Below, piece by piece: positions 1,579-61,219 of a DNA stretch of 64,000 nt; position 1 is the first letter of the stretch, and every line of letters begins with the position of its first letter. The position numbers and the translations under genes were made by a program. The DNA is from Eledone cirrhosa. Taxonomy: Eukaryota. The notes beneath the pieces are model-generated. The model made no database searches, was not told the origin of the DNA, and saw only the letters and a program-made list of their open reading frames with translations. Where the stretch lies: NCBI GenBank assembly GCA_964016885.1, contig CAXHJY010000125.1, forward strand, positions 1 through 64,000. The letters are read 5' to 3'.

Positions 1579-1644
1579 TATTTCATTATATATATTTCAG
1601 GGATATCATATTAACAATATGTTATGCCTTCCTCAGACAAAATA
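1579..1644 (-). ncRNA. Type I hammerhead ribozyme (minimal stem III) in PLE A pseudo-LTR
   Basis: minus strand TATTTTGT-CTGAGGA-AGG..CCT-GAAA-TATATA-TA-ATGAAATA; stem I and stem II pair. Confidence 0.8.
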
Positions 1645-3184
1645 CAATATAGACAGTTTTATAGATAAATAGATTTGACATACCGTTCAACATTGACTTG
1701 TATTTGAAAAAGTTGATTTGGCAGTGAAAAATTGTAAACAGAAAGAAAGAAAGAGAGAAAGAAGGAAAGAAAGAAAGAAAACGAAGAAAAAGAAGAAAAA
1801 GAAGAAATGCATGCAACAAAATAGAGAGATGGAAAGATAGATAAAGAGAAGAACTTCATGTAAAGAAACAGAGAGAGATATATATAGAGAGAGGAAATAG
1901 ATAGAGATAGATATATATAGAGAAAAGTAGGTAGTTGGACATCCGTTGAATGAACGTATCAATGATACATTTATTTATTTATTTATTTATTTAGCTCTAG
2001 TATTAATGTAAGGGAGATATATGTGGTTAGGAAAGAAACCAGCCGTTATATAGAGAGAAAAATGAAAAGTAACCAGACATAGGCGAGGCATAGTTTAAAA
2101 ACCCTATGTTTAATGTAGAAATATTAGTACGTATAAAAACAGGCACTATAATGTAAATATCAGTATTCCTGAATGAGACACGTATCCATAATGTGTGAAA
2201 AGTAATGATCTTATGTCTAGTTTTAAAAATTCATATGTTTATATGATAACTACAAACATCGATGTGAATTTACGTGATCAACTCTGCAAACCCCTATTTC
2301 ACACGGAGAACATTCTCATTGTCATTGTGCTATAAACATTTAAGTATACATATATGTGTATATATATACACATATATATAGAGTCCTATATTAATTTTAA
2401 CAATACTATTCTTGTCTTTACTCTACATGATTATCTATCAAGTAGAAATAGAGAACAGATTTCAATATATTAATAAAAAATATCAGAAACAAAAACAAAA
2501 AATAATAATAATAATAATAATAAATAATAATAATAAACAAATAAATAAAATAGAAAACTAAAAAATAAAAAATAAAAAAATAAAAAATAAAAATAAAAAA
2601 TAAAAAATAAAAAATAAAAAATAAAAAATAAAAAATAAAAAATAAAAAATAAAAAATAAAAAATAAAAAATAAAAAATAAAAAATAAAAATTAAAAAAAA
2701 TAAAAAATATTACATATTAAAAATAAAAATATTAAAAATATTAAAAAATATTAAAAAATATTACAATAAATAAAAATAAAAACATAATAGAAACATAATA
2801 TGCCACGCATATCGACCACAAAGATCAACCCTTCAAAATTAATTGACAATATATTGCCAAGTTCATTATAAGCATCAGAGTCGAAAACAGATGAAGCTAA
2901 AAATTATTTACCAAATCGCGTCTAGCAAAAATCATTTCAAAAAGTTTAGGATGCCCATTTGGTCTACATATGTTCTTATATTTAATATAGAAGTTTATCT
3001 AGTGTAACGTTTATTCGAAATATTTGGAGCAATCAACTTTTAGGGTAGTTTAATTTTTCATGAAGAATGTTTAAATAAAAATAAAAAGAAGAATAAAAAG
3101 AAGAAATCGAAAGATTTATCGGCTAGTTTCCCAAATAATTATAAATCAAACTAAATATACTACATTTTAAATTTAAATTTATAT

Positions 3185-5374
3185 TTAAAAGTTGAGTTTA
3201 ATCTATGTTTGCAGCAACTGAATAAATTTGTCCGTCGATTAAGGGAATTTTTAGATTTTAGTATAAAGAATATCTCCTCTGCGCAGAGGTCACATGTCTC
3301 AGAGGATGAATTAAAAGGAATCCCTCTTGAGACTATATTCCAAGCCGTCGAATATCTAACGTTATCTTGCCTAAGTTGCCAGAGTACGCCTGATAGTGCT
3401 GTTGAAGATTTTTTGCTTGGATCTGTGAAAGAATTCTTGTGGTTATTATAGCGAAGTTTAAATTCCGTCGATGTGGAACCGACGTAGTTAAAAGAATTAA
3501 AGTCAGTTTTAACATTACAATTGTATATTATATTTTTAACTAAGCAGTTGTTATTTAACGGACATTTAGATCTATCTCTACAGTTACATTTAACTTGTAT
3601 ATTATTTATGCTATTATCGCTAGGTTTTAAGTTCCTATTATTTATTCTATTAATATTTTGTGCTAAATTTTTGGTGGATGAGTAGGTTAATTTTATAGTA
3701 TGTCTATTGAAAATTGAGTGATACCTATGTGTTCTAGGGAAGCGATTATCAAGAGCTTTAAAAAAATAGTTTAGCGATGTGGGTTTTAATGTTTAGTGAG
3801 AAAGGGGGGGGCAAACCATATTATGTTCCTAGTTCTATTTCTTTTTTGGCTTTTGGAATTATTGTAATGCTTTCTATTATAGTTGTTAAGGTTGTTGCCG
3901 TAATTAAAATAGTTGTTATTTTGTTTAGTTTGTCTATCATTATCTATGTACATAATCTTATCACTATATCCTGCTCTAGCTAACGCTTCATTGTAGTACT
4001 GGGCTTTTTCGTCGAAAATCTTTCTATTAGACGAGATTCTAGAGATACGTTTTTTGAACAGAGTTTACTATAGTGTTTTTGACAGATCTGGGGTGGTTAG
4101 AGTTAAAGCTGACATAGTTTAAGTTTTCATTCAACTTGTGAAAAGGATAGTGAAGACATGTGTTGAGATTTAATGTTATATCTAGGAAATTGACTATTCT
4201 ATGGTTGTTCTCAATTTCTATTTTAAGATTAAAGTAATTAAAAAAATTGTGTAATTTGTTTTCTTTTTCTATTTAGTTCAGAGTTATTATTATCAATAAG
4301 TAAAAGCATGTCATCTCTATATAAACCTCCGGTAGTACCAGGTATTTTCCTATGTAGCGAATTGATTAAAAATAAGCCCACAAGGTCAGTTACCTGAGCT
4401 GAGTCGGATGATCCCATAGTAATGTCAAAATTGCTATCTCTATCTGCTCTGGTCCATAGTTGGTCATTAAATTCTATCAATGTTTTCCTAGCCGATAATA
4501 TAATGTGCATTTCATTGCTAGTTAGGTCTGTATGTTTGAATGCGTAATTTAGTGCCTTATTTAGTAGATTAGGGGTAATAGAAGAATAATAGTTAGCAAT
4601 ATCAAGTTGAATAAACTTATTATTATTGTTATATTTAATTTGCTTAAACCACTCAACAACCTCTCCAGTTCCCTTCCACAAGCTCAGGTTAGGTAAACAA
4701 TCCAAGTTCTTAATTTGCTGTATCACCCTGTCAAGAATGTTTTTGCTTAATTTGCCCAGGTCCGATTTTGATGGTGCGATCAATCTAACTGGCAAGTCAT
4801 TTTCAAAATTCCTTTTGTGATCTTTCATATTGATCTTCGGTTTCCTGGGCACGAAAGGTTGTGTTCTGTTCTCAATTTCCAACTCGTGCATTATACAAGA
4901 TGCTTCGACATTCATTTTCTCAAGCTCGGCCTTATCTGCTACCTTGTACTTTTTCCTCAGTTCCTTCAGTATGAGGCCATTATACATGTCTTTCTGCACT
5001 CCATAGAGGTTGTTGGTCTTGTCAGATTTCACCAAGATCTTCTCAGTTTTCTCTAAGCTCTCAATATTATCCTTAATGCCTTTCAGATATTCCTGGCCTT
5101 TGAAGTTTCTCTTGAATTTGACCCCTTGTATGATAGAAATTATATCGTTTTCAAAGTCAGATAAAAGTTTGTTAGGGGGTGGATTTCTTTTAGATTTGAA
5201 AACTTTGTTTAAGTCCGAGACATTTTCATTTATATTAGATTTATCAAAGTGGAATGCTCGCCACCTGATTCTCCTTATAAAAGAGTCAGATTTATCTATT
5301 AATTGTTTTATAAAGTCTTTGTTTCTAGGTAGAGGTATGTCTTTTAAAGAGGAAGTAATCTTAAAGAATTCCAT
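3185..5374 (-). pseudogene. PLE reverse transcriptase + GIY-YIG endonuclease, frameshifted
   Basis: SLKDIP..RIRWRAFH N-terminus; FIQLDIANYYSSI, FDITMGSSDSAQ, GLYRDD RT motifs in ORF 4238-5374; downstream frames give CNCRDRSKCPL, NIIYNC..YVGST, CDLC, CCKH, stop at 3185. Confidence 0.9.
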
Positions 5375-5552
5375 TTTTTCAGTTATAATATAAAGCGCTC
5401 AACAGTATTGGAGCAAGATACATGGAAAGTTATGTTTAAATTGTTGGGTTACAACTAGTAAATATTTATAACTGATATAAAAGCACTCAACAAGTATTTG
5501 GAGTATATTTACGATATTAAATAAATGGAAACTATATTTATAAAACCATATT

Positions 5553-59700: not shown

Positions 59701-60025
59701 TATATATTCATATATATATATATATATATATATATATATATATATATTCATATATATATATATATATATATATATATTCATATATATATATATATATATA
59801 TATATATATATATTCATATATATATATATGTATATATATATATATATATATATATATATATTCATATATATTCATATATATATATATATATATATATATA
59901 TATTCATATATATATATATATATATACATTCATATATATATATATTCATATATATATATATATATATATATATTCATATATATATATATATATATTCATA
60001 TATATATATATATATATATATATAA
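53704..60025. repeat. Interrupted (TA)n satellite, TATTCA variant, ~6.3 kb
   Basis: direct inspection; internal flipped segment ~58768-59230. Confidence 0.97.
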
Positions 60026-61174
60026 TTTAGGTGTGTATACATTTGCTTCGTTTTGTAATTTCCGGTTGATTGTTTTTATTTACCACTCACTGTCTGGCTT
60101 TGCTCATCCACACATGTCTGTCTACTAACCTTGAAATTATAAGTATTTATTTATTTATATATTATATGCCTATTTTTAAAATATATTACATTATGATATA
60201 GATCCTTAATACTTACCGTTTATTATATATAACATTAAGATAGTTAAACTTTATATTTTTTAATATTTTTTATATTTTTATATTTTAATATTTTAACATT
60301 GTAATATGTAACATTATTGTATTTAGACTTTACATATCTTGTTAGATGTCTATATTTTTTCTGTAACAACATATTTTTTCTGTAACATCATAATTGTTCC
60401 CTGTACCAATATAGTTTTTTTGAGTATTATTGTATTATATTATATGATTGATATTTCCCCATTTATTATGTAACCTAGTATGAATCATGTTGTACATATT
60501 GATTATGGTAATTGTTAATATAATGTTAACAATTTATCATTGTATTTCACTGTGACATCTATATTGTTTCTGTAAATTAACCGGAGATTATATATATTCT
60601 TATTATATATATCCTACTTTATTATATTGTATTATATTATATAATTTTGTTGTTTATTATTTATTATAAGTGTTTCTTGTAATTATTGCCTCATGTATAT
60701 TGGGTAGATGTATTAGCATTATTTTCACTATTACCATGCTTATTTTTATATTTTTGATGTTCAAACTTCCAATAGGGCTTAATTTCTGTGTAATAGAAAA
60801 TAGATATGTGTATTGTAATATGTGTGTGTGTGTGTGTGTGTGTGCGCACATATATACATGTATATATTGTACCTTTTGATTTTTGATTTGGAATTTCAGT
60901 GTTGGTATAGATATATTGTTATTATAATGTATTATACTGTGTTATATATAATTCCTGCTCTATATAACCAAATTTGTTTAGATTTAAGTTGGTGACTTTG
61001 GACTATATTTGTAATATGGTTCTTAATGTTATCTACATCCTTAGTTATTATAATTTTATTATTTTTATCTTCATTTTTATTATCGTATATCCTTGTAAGA
61101 GATTAGTGTATGTAAACTCCATATTCTTCAGAGTTTCTGGCTTGTATCTGCCGAAATTACCTCTTGTTGTTTTG

Positions 61175-61219
61175 ATTGCCCTGATGAGTCCTTAATAGGA
61201 CGAAACATTGTCGGCTAAT
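61175..61219 (+). ncRNA. Type I hammerhead ribozyme (minimal stem III)
   Basis: ATTGCC-CTGATGA-GTCCT taat AGGAC-GAAAC att GTC-GGCtAAT; predicted cleavage after 61212. Confidence 0.9.

What the first reader, a model, noticed from the sequence alone, without database searches (positions are those of the whole stretch)
1579..61219. Hammerhead hotspot: 17 type I ribozyme motifs from about a dozen distinct sequence families in 64 kb
Seen: YTGANRA..GAAA..TH cores with pairing stems at 1579, 5553, 7466, 16546, 18510, 19137, 21400, 26103, 27569, 39993, 40089, 41053, 41894, 44639, 46041, 50577 and 61175. Most non-satellite islands carry one. Established: PLE pseudo-LTRs and metazoan non-LTR retrozymes carry type I hammerheads. 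Inference: this TA array is a sink for a community of autonomous PLEs and non-coding ribozyme RNAs that share a TA-targeting integration route.
Basis: partly seen in the sequence, partly recalled or inferred. Interest (0 to 1): 0.75.

Follow-up and report, generated by a model that had tools for sequence, protein, structure and literature searches.

The report
Genome-wide Penelope hammerhead flood, not hotspot
The hammerhead self-cutting-RNA motifs crowding this stretch are real but typical of the whole animal genome, which holds an estimated quarter to four-tenths of a million of them; they sit in Penelope-type jumping genes and in protein-free repeats, and because both land in TA microsatellites with the same two-ended signature, Penelope enzymes likely copy the protein-free repeats.

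Summary
All 17 motifs are present, from 11 families; 13 pass a structural descriptor (shuffles: mean 0.06), and I found two more plus a decayed one. It is not a local hotspot. Blind chromosomal samples give 122 hits in 0.94 Mb, against 13 in 64 kb here (expected 8.3, P=0.16). That extrapolates to about 250,000-380,000 motifs from at least ~35-41 families; one sub-pattern alone counts 48,732 genome-wide (control 169). Six families are ends of Penelope-like elements (PLEs; Hydra-type and Neptune/Nematis-type). Five are non-coding 465-628-nt tandem retrozymes. TA targeting holds genome-wide: 85 of 108 hammerheads have (TA)n within 450 nt downstream, against 24% of random sites. The retrozymes show PLE anatomy: variable 5' ends, fixed 3' ends far from the cut site, and inverted two-arm insertions. 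In 41 of 53 such insertions one arm ends at a long and the other at a short fixed site, never long+long or short+short (the PLE 'tail'). PLE-driven copying is inferred; cleavage and expression are untested. The scan noted this system earlier on other DNA of this genome. Known kinds; the scale and the shared tail are the news.

The parts
1450..7572 (.). Family A: Hydra-type PLE. Minus-strand arm with pLTR-ORF-pLTR (RT part 4238-5398, EN part 3160-3792, interrupted) and an inverted plus-strand arm from about 5890; long end left, short end right, both on (TA)n
1579..1644 (-). Type I hammerhead, family A (palindromic UAUAUA stem III)
5553..5621 (-). Type I hammerhead, family A, upstream pLTR
7466..7531 (+). 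Type I hammerhead, family A, inverted arm
16383..18380 (-). Family B: 5'-truncated PLE (ORF 16901-18214, CX4CxxC linker, GIY-YIG-type end) with hammerhead 16546-16590
   Evidence: own ORF in 14 of 15 loci
18413..19478 (+). Family C retrozyme: 1.7 copies of a 628-nt non-coding unit; hammerheads 18510-18588 and 19137-19217 (7-bp stem III); fixed 3' end about 269 nt after the cut site, on (TA)n
21128..26038 (+). Family D retrozyme (about 479-nt unit), split by an LTR element (21540-25749) and a SINE piece (25870-25956); hammerhead 21400-21491 with a decayed core in this copy
26040..27140 (-). Family E: 3' end of a Hydra-type PLE (5' limit approximate); hammerhead 26103-26158
   Evidence: (Hydra-type EN/RT hits in 10 of 20 loci)
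27146..27909 (+). Family F retrozyme: 1.4 copies of a 540-nt unit; hammerhead 27569-27648; ends at the long site (266) on (TA)n
28335..30683 (-).
32580..38640 (.).
   Evidence: 4 relatives in the background sample
39835..40243 (.). Family G: fold-back pair of PLE 3' ends, hammerheads 39993-40031 (-) and 40089-40127 (+); 5,173 exact copies of the 37-nt motif genome-wide
40833..41125 (-). Family H retrozyme: 293-nt piece of a 465-nt unit that forms 100%-identical arrays elsewhere; hammerhead 41053-41097; ends at the short site (227)
41856..42155 (+). Family I retrozyme: piece of a 593-nt unit, 3' part cut off by a LINE-like fragment; hammerhead 41894-41983 with a U3:A8 core fixed in the family
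44590..45306 (.). Family A: short two-arm insertion; hammerhead 44639-44704 (-)
45833..50890 (.). Family J: young PLE as a perfect fold-back about 48330 (659-aa 5'-truncated ORF in each arm; 0 mismatches in 2,500 nt); ends at +218 and +275; hammerheads 46041 (-) and 50577 (+) with 2-bp stem I
60025..64000 (+). Family K: near-full-length Hydra-type PLE; pLTR with hammerhead 61175-61219, open ORF from 61446 running past the window end, 3' pLTR in the last 1.5 kb of the contig
50893..60024 (.). Largest (TA)n-derived satellite block; others at 8-1449, 7573-8577, 12206-16381, 30684-32587, 40243-41848, 43530-44590. (TA)n is the shared target

Best explanation
The window is an ordinary TA-rich sample of a genome saturated with type I hammerhead motifs, carried by Penelope-like retrotransposons (PLEs) and by protein-free tandem retrozymes that PLE enzymes likely copy into (TA)n. 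SHOWN: the motifs; their genome-wide density; each family's make-up; fixed 3' ends about 50-300 nt downstream of the cut site, abutting (TA)n with a few bases of AT-rich overlap; variable 5' ends; tandem units; two-arm insertions with one long and one short end. INFERRED mechanism: a PLE GIY-YIG endonuclease nicks (TA)n. The RT starts inside the RNA at one of two fixed sites, one site per target strand, giving the two unequal arms. On retrozymes it runs past the hammerhead junction, round a circular RNA or along a multimeric one, giving 1 to about 17 units with a random 5' end. Hammerhead cleavage, mostly as dimers given the palindromic stem III, would cut multimers to unit length and feed circularisation; it does not set the insertion ends.
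For: Motifs against shuffles: 13 vs mean 0.06. Background: 122 hits in 939,600 blind bases vs 1-4 shuffled. Whole-genome counts: 48,732 vs 169 for the UAUAUA-stem-III pattern; 5,173 vs 0 for family G. TA link: 85 of 108 with (TA)>=5 within 450 nt downstream vs 24% of random sites; Spearman 0.69 between hammerheads and TA arrays per stretch. Retrozyme units close head-to-tail; longest ATG ORF 34-63 aa. Any PLE protein hit in array loci: 0 of 6 (H), 0 of 14 (C), 0 of 8 (F), 3 of 12 (I), against own-ORF hits in 14 of 15 (B) and 19 of 20 (J). Every closed family C 3' end lies at 267-270 and 5' ends scatter. Two-arm insertions in I, F, D and H: 41 of 53 long+short, 0 long+long, 0 short+short, 12 with an off-site or interrupted arm. 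The autonomous A, G and J show the same unequal ends. This matches the PLE 'tail' (PMC8557442) and the two RT start sites of a purified PLE (PMC11167929). Signs of selection on the fold: background cores are 107 C3:G8 and 15 U3:A8 against 0 U3:G8 and 1 C3:A8 (the U3:A8 shuffle gave 3, so a few are chance). A compensatory A-U to U-A swap at stem II pair 10.2-11.2 of family H is seen in runs X5 and X6.
Against: No sequence homology was found between any retrozyme unit and the PLE ends in this window beyond low-complexity matches, so no partner PLE is named. Family C shows one 3' end and no inversions. Tails are about 60-165 nt, longer than the 30-40 nt described. Queries for F and D favour copies reaching one end, so only the inverted arm is unbiased there. 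Only 2 of the 11 monomers folded (C and D) clearly give the full three-stem hammerhead as their minimum-energy fold. In published tests only 1 of 9 Xenopus retrozyme dimers cleaved (10.64898/2026.07.22.740005), and hammerhead mutants did not block PLE insertion in vitro (PMC11167929). The same study found RT start sites not homologous to the target, whereas the ends here show AT-rich overlap. The sample over-counts both calibration patterns (23 vs 15.3; 4 vs 1.6), so the direct estimate of 380,000 is probably high.
Confidence: 0.75

Rival explanations
1. The window is a true local sink, where nested PLE and retrozyme insertions pile up far above the genome norm.
For: 203/Mb against 130/Mb by direct sample, or about 85/Mb if the calibrated estimate holds. 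P=0.036 for independent insertions per non-TA base. TA tracts cover 32% of the window against about 5% of the background.
Against: P=0.16 for motifs and for independent insertions per total base. The TA-richest 21 of 94 background stretches hold 3.3 per 10 kb, more than the window. Eight of the nine window families caught by the descriptor recur in the blind sample.
Confidence: 0.12
2. The non-coding tandem units are decayed PLE pseudo-LTRs that spread as satellite DNA by unequal crossover or DNA-level copying, not through RNA.
For: pLTR-retrozyme kinship and crossover expansion are proposed in 10.64898/2026.07.22.740005. H arrays reach about 17 identical units, which local homogenisation could also give.
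Against: Arrays are dispersed over many chromosomes. Each has a fixed 3' end on (TA)n and a variable 5' end, and two-arm copies use two fixed ends; DNA recombination predicts none of this. Units are more self-paired as circles than shuffles (z -2.3 to -9.0).
Confidence: 0.06
3. Retrozymes move through RNA but are copied by a LINE protein (APE-RT or RTE-like, both present in the window), and the hammerheads are passengers.
For: An APE-RT LINE with an open 1,045-aa frame (8983-12120) and LINE-like RT fragments also sit in TA tracts here. PMC7229834 leaves LINEs open. Family C lacks the two-arm form.
Against: No poly(A) or 3' repeat tail at the ends examined. Both arms duplicate the same 3' region and end at two fixed sites, which is described as PLE-specific (PMC8557442, PMC11167929) and is seen in the autonomous PLEs of this window.
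Confidence: 0.07

Closest known systems
Metazoan non-LTR retrozymes (Cervera and de la Pena 2020, PMC7229834; Li, Clavereau and Pollet 2026, 10.64898/2026.07.22.740005)
   Same: Non-coding tandem units with one type I hammerhead each, low GC (0.34-0.42 for C, H, I), self-paired as circles, co-existing with PLEs; PLE mobilisation proposed.
   Different: Units of 465-628 nt (170-400 in the 2020 paper; within 51-972 in the 2026 preprint). (TA)n targeting and two fixed 3' ends are not described in the text I read: 'inverted', 'microsatellite' and 'target site' occur 0 times in PMC7229834. The preprint samples no mollusc. No pLTR homologue was found here.
Hydra clade of EN+ PLEs (Craig et al. 2021, PMC8557442; includes Hydra-1_Obim, (TA)n, file S1)
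   Same: RW(K/R) and DKT motifs, CxCX5C linker, CxxC and CxH in a C-terminal GIY-YIG-type domain, hammerhead in the pLTR, (TA)n insertion: families A and K and the 32.6-38.6 kb element.
   Different: K is longer than the typical <3 kb. One family has a 101-103-nt stem II. No tree with reference sequences was built.
Neptune/Nematis-type PLEs with minimal hammerheads (Cervera and de la Pena 2014, PMC4209133)
   Same: CX4CxxC linker (B, J, 29.5 kb element); palindromic stem III; bulge after A9; 2-bp stem I as in the D. virilis element (J); U3:A8 core as in the S. mansoni Cercyon element; opposite-strand pairs 100-700 bp apart.
   Different: Counts there are 2,000-9,000 minimal motifs per genome; here an estimated 250,000-380,000. 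Clade not resolved between Neptune and Nematis.
Axolotl retrozyme hammerheads (126,247 motifs, two families, PMC7229834)
   Same: Very high copy number of type I hammerheads.
   Different: This 3.0-Gb genome has an estimated 2-3 times as many motifs, from dozens of families rather than two; the axolotl genome is 28 Gb (2026 preprint).

Membership tests
Type I hammerhead ribozyme | CUGANGA (or U3:A8), GAAA and UH core in C-G-S order with stems I, II and III | tested here: met
   13 of 17 pass the descriptor; 4 are atypical or decayed; 2 more found
Type I hammerhead ribozyme | Covariation in core or stems | tested here: met
   107 C3:G8 and 15 U3:A8 vs 0 U3:G8 and 1 C3:A8; compensatory 10.2-11.2 swap in family H relatives
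Type I hammerhead ribozyme | Rfam gathering score | tested here: not met
   Best 38.9 bits (HH9, cut-off 52) and 31.7 bits (Hammerhead_1, cut-off 34); 0 matches in 7 background stretches. Rfam models miss these variants
Type I hammerhead ribozyme | Site-specific self-cleavage | not testable with these tools
   Needs in vitro transcription
Non-LTR retrozymes (C, D, F, H, I) | Head-to-tail units, each with a type I hammerhead | tested here: met
   Periods 628, 465, 593 and 540; D about 479 as partial tandems only
Non-LTR retrozymes (C, D, F, H, I) | No coding capacity, no linked RT | tested here: met
   Longest ATG ORF 34-63 aa; occasional PLE hits in flanks are not shared between loci
Non-LTR retrozymes (C, D, F, H, I) | Unit size of a few hundred nt and GC below about 45-50% | tested here: met
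   465-628 nt, above the 170-400 nt of PMC7229834 but inside the 51-972 nt of the 2026 preprint; GC 0.34, 0.37, 0.42 for C, H, I; not computed for the corrected F and D units
Non-LTR retrozymes (C, D, F, H, I) | Expressed as linear and circular unit-length RNA | not testable with these tools
   Needs RNA data or northern blot
Hydra clade PLE (A, K, 32.6-38.6 kb element) | RWK-type motif, DKT, CxCX5C linker, CxxC and CxH, C-terminal EN | tested here: met
   RWR, DKT (A, K; DKI in the broken third element), CNCRDRSKC / CNCRVSANC, CDLC..CKH
Hydra clade PLE (A, K, 32.6-38.6 kb element) | Hammerhead in pLTR and (TA)n insertion | tested here: met
Hydra clade PLE (A, K, 32.6-38.6 kb element) | Placement in the Hydra clade on an RT tree | not tested
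Neptune or Nematis clade PLE (B, J, 29.5 kb element) | CX2-5CxxC linker before a C-terminal GIY-YIG domain | tested here: met
   [27 protein letters not shown]; PF01541 in the 29.5 kb ORF only
Neptune or Nematis clade PLE (B, J, 29.5 kb element) | Clade assignment by RT tree | not tested
   No named references; closest named protein is an Octopus vulgaris hypothetical protein at 68%
Non-circularly permuted hammerheads (type SGC, PMC10085705) | Blocks in S-G-C order | tested here: not met
   0 in the window and 0 in 0.94 Mb of background under a strict perfect-stem descriptor, which also recovered few type I motifs, so sensitivity is low

The most novel reading that the evidence does not exclude
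This genome is the most hammerhead-rich animal genome yet described (250,000-400,000 motifs, possibly 70 or more families). Its retrozymes record the PLE reaction directly: a PLE protein pair primes both strands of one nicked (TA)n site from two fixed start sites on a circular retrozyme RNA. Young PLEs (J, K) and young retrozymes (H, C, I) from one genome would then supply a ready reconstitution system for rolling-circle retrotransposition.
Probability: 0.4. Interest if true: 0.72.

Novelty: new member of a known kind. Interest (0 to 1): 0.52.

Why it matters
Which enzyme moves animal retrozymes is open; published support is co-occurrence and pLTR similarity. Here four unrelated retrozyme families carry the two-ended insertion signature described as unique to PLEs, with mapped start sites, beside PLE families young enough to be tested (J copies are 100% identical; K has an open ORF). 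The estimated 250,000-380,000 motifs exceed the largest count I found in print (126,247), are invisible at Rfam thresholds, and are not mentioned in a 2026 octopus repeat annotation ('ribozyme' 0 times in PMC13282606). The window itself is not special.

Tried and rejected
1. Local hotspot: rejected by blind background. 2. Chance motifs: rejected by shuffles and reversed controls. 3. Rfam: the window scan was swamped by TA-driven miRNA matches, which are artefacts, as is the mir-34 hit on the J fold-back centre; the gathering scan of 7 background stretches gave 0. 4. Expression: no RNA holder listed. The four runs laid are contigs of unrecorded type; the very high depth in X1 and the unit-length loops in X5 and X6 fit tandem DNA as well as circular RNA, so they were not used for or against expression. 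5. Partner PLE by homology: only low-complexity matches. 6. The F unit was mis-cut, so those F rows were dropped and redone. The D unit held an inverted piece, so its z of -10.8 was dropped and replaced by -2.3. 7. Type-SGC or other permutations: none under a strict descriptor. 8. Clustering of 5' ends just after the cut site: 9 of 47 in I (p 0.009, window chosen after seeing the data) but 3 of 25 in C (p 0.43); not relied on. 9. Neighbouring DNA: the contig ends at 65,555, so no wider context. 10. Literature searches for a prior report of cephalopod hammerhead abundance or of the tail in retrozymes found none; the library lacks most subscription journals, and the preprint's supplements and file S2 of PMC8557442 were not seen. 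No structure prediction was run.

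
Full report
SETTING. The window is bases 1-64,000 of an unplaced 65,555-base contig (G000:C152) of a 3.0-Gb animal genome. The closest named protein to one of its elements is from Octopus vulgaris, at 68%. About a third of the window is (TA)n-derived satellite. The islands between are mobile elements: several PLEs, an APE-RT LINE, LINE-like RT fragments, a gypsy-type LTR element, SINEs and non-coding repeats.

OBSERVATION. All 17 listed motifs exist. A strict descriptor found 7 (shuffles mean 0.22). The final descriptor found 13, against a mean of 0.06 in 50 local dinucleotide shuffles and 0 in the reversed window. 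The four misses are explained. 21400 has a decayed core in this copy but still folds as a three-way junction. 46041 and 50577 have a 2-bp stem I that is identical in copies across chromosomes and resembles the D. virilis variant (PMC4209133, passages). 61175 has a bulged stem I and a sub-threshold Rfam Hammerhead_1 match. Allowing a long stem II added two motifs, 32894(-) and 38457(+), with four relatives in the background; homology added a decayed one near 28470.

NOT A HOTSPOT. I fetched 94 stretches of 10 kb at positions chosen blind on the large contigs. The same descriptor gave 122 hits in 939,600 bases (130/Mb, bootstrap 91-176), against 1-4 in six shuffles; one stretch held 15. The window's 13 compare with 8.3 expected (P=0.16). 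Per non-TA base P=0.07, or 0.036 counting independent insertions. Density rises with TA content: 0.08, 0.78, 1.27 and 3.29 per 10 kb across four classes of TA-array number. Direct extrapolation gives about 380,000 motifs (274,000-526,000). Two whole-genome counts check this: 48,732 for a core-plus-palindrome pattern (control 169) and 5,173 exact copies of the family G motif (control 0). The sample over-counts both (23 vs 15.3; 4 vs 1.6), and a ratio estimate gives 254,000 (157,000-483,000). The background hits form 41 clusters (23 singletons, a few of them probably chance; Chao1 77). The largest count I found in print is 126,247, in axolotl (PMC7229834, passages).

WHAT CARRIES THE MOTIFS. Six families are PLE ends. 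A and K have the Hydra-clade motifs (RWR, DKT, CxCX5C, CxxC and, in A, CxH; PMC8557442 section 11), as does, in broken form, the 32.6-38.6 kb element. E links to Hydra-type EN/RT in 10 of 20 loci. B and J have a CX4CxxC linker and their own ORF in 14 of 15 and 19 of 20 loci. G has PLE hits in 7 of 15 loci, four of them sharing one ORF-bearing flank. Five families are non-coding tandem units: C 628, H 465, I 593, F 540 and D about 479 nt. Their longest ATG frames are 34-63 aa, and their circular folds are more stable than 20 shuffles (z -3.6, -9.0, -5.2, -2.4; D -2.3). H arrays are 100% identical across chromosomes, so it is very young. These fit non-LTR retrozymes.

HOW THEY INSERT. In the background, 85 of 108 hammerheads away from stretch edges have (TA)>=5 within 450 nt downstream, and 61 of 108 upstream, against 24-25% of random sites. 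The seven families examined have fixed 3' ends downstream of the hammerhead, mostly on (TA)n. Every closed C array ends 267-270 nt after the cut site while 5' ends scatter, and arrays reach 12.5 units. So copying starts inside the RNA and passes through the cut site, as expected for a circular or multimeric template (inference). Families I, F, D and H have two 3' ends each: 80/243, 178/266, 169/246 and about 227/301. Of 53 two-arm insertions (overlapping loci counted once), 41 pair a long with a short end, none pair long+long or short+short, and 12 have an off-site or interrupted arm. The loci are top BLAST hits, and for F and D the query favours one end on the main arm, so the inverted arm carries the information. 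Autonomous A, G and J show the same unequal ends. This is the PLE 'tail' (PMC8557442, passages), which PMC11167929 (passages) traced to two internal RT start sites and called unique to PLEs. An independent run also shows TA joined at the long end of H. C shows one end and no inversions.

ARE THE RIBOZYMES MAINTAINED? Position 3:8 is nearly always paired: 107 C:G and 15 U:A, against 0 U:G and 1 C:A. Family I fixes U3:A8, a variant known from an S. mansoni PLE (PMC4209133 section 5). Family H relatives in runs X5 and X6 show a compensatory swap in stem II. Most motifs have palindromic 4-8-nt stem III, so dimer activity is likely (PMC4209133, PMC7229834). Only C and D monomers clearly fold as full hammerheads among the 11 folded. 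Cleavage is untested, and published activity is often low (1 of 9 in the 2026 preprint).

COMPARISON AND NOVELTY. PLE hammerheads, Hydra (TA)n targeting (including an octopus Hydra family), the tail and non-LTR retrozymes are all known. PLE mobilisation of retrozymes has been proposed from co-occurrence and pLTR similarity. I found no report of the tail or of (TA)n targeting in retrozymes, nor of this abundance in cephalopods (searches). No partner PLE could be named. Earlier notes of this scan on other DNA of this genome reach the same reading. My reading was recorded before that look-up, and those notes are not independent support.

PAPERS SEEN. 10.64898/2026.07.22.740005: parts 1-3 of 5 (abstract to discussion); supplements closed. 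PMC8557442: outline, passages, section 11, a term search of file S1. PMC4209133: passages and section 5. PMC7229834, PMC11167929, PMC10085705, PMC13282606: passages. Other papers: search listings only. The labels 'RTE-like', 'gypsy-type' and 'tRNA-like SINE' rest on Pfam domains, LTR/TSD anatomy or recall, not on a family-level test.

VERDICT. The motifs are real and the hotspot is not. The community and the shared TA route are supported genome-wide. New members of known kinds; interest 0.52.

Noticed in passing
window 21540-25749: Gypsy-type LTR element (protease, RNase H and integrase domains in a 961-aa frame; LTRs match at 262 of 271 columns; 5-bp target duplication) inserted in retrozyme D.
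   Followed up: partly
window 25870-25956; L112, L122, L124, L128, L129, L130: Pieces of one SINE sit at the same site (position 172, next to the short end) of retrozyme D in 7 of 20 loci, with lengths of about 85-185 nt; either a strong site preference or a composite subfamily.
   Followed up: partly
window 32884-33297 and 38075-38463: Tandem SINE copies are inserted at the 5' strand of stem I of the long-stem-II hammerhead in both arms, and stem I is still formed from the duplicated target.
   Followed up: no
window 45833-50890: The J insertion is a perfect fold-back (0 mismatches in 2,500 nt, 1-nt centre), unlike retrozyme pairs whose arms have different 5' ends; a snap-back event or an assembly artefact.
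   Followed up: partly
window 39835-40243; G000:C1 list: Opposite-strand pairs of the G hammerhead recur with the same 76-nt gap at five or more loci, suggesting fold-back at a fixed internal hairpin.
   Followed up: no
window 1-60024: The TA satellite changes flavour along the contig: TACATA-type at 0-16 kb, TAAATG-type at 28-42 kb, TTCATA-type at 43-60 kb.
   Followed up: no
window 8578-12205: APE-RT LINE with an uninterrupted 1,045-aa frame, flanked by (TA)n on both sides, without a hammerhead.
   Followed up: partly
family C arrays: 6 of 25 5' ends fall at unit positions 455-472, three of them exactly at 458 including the window copy; a preferred stop or joining site.
   Followed up: no
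L045 unit 260-300 (family H); family F unit 178-266: A hairpin lies between the short and long ends in H and F, reminiscent of the stem-loop at the PLE RT start sites.
   Followed up: no
runs X1, X4, X5, X6: The family H unit occurs at about 95-99% identity in runs of four coded organisms; X1 has extremely high summed depth, but its type is not on record.
   Followed up: partly
window 53100-53720: A 620-nt island in the largest TA block with no hammerhead found; not identified.
   Followed up: no
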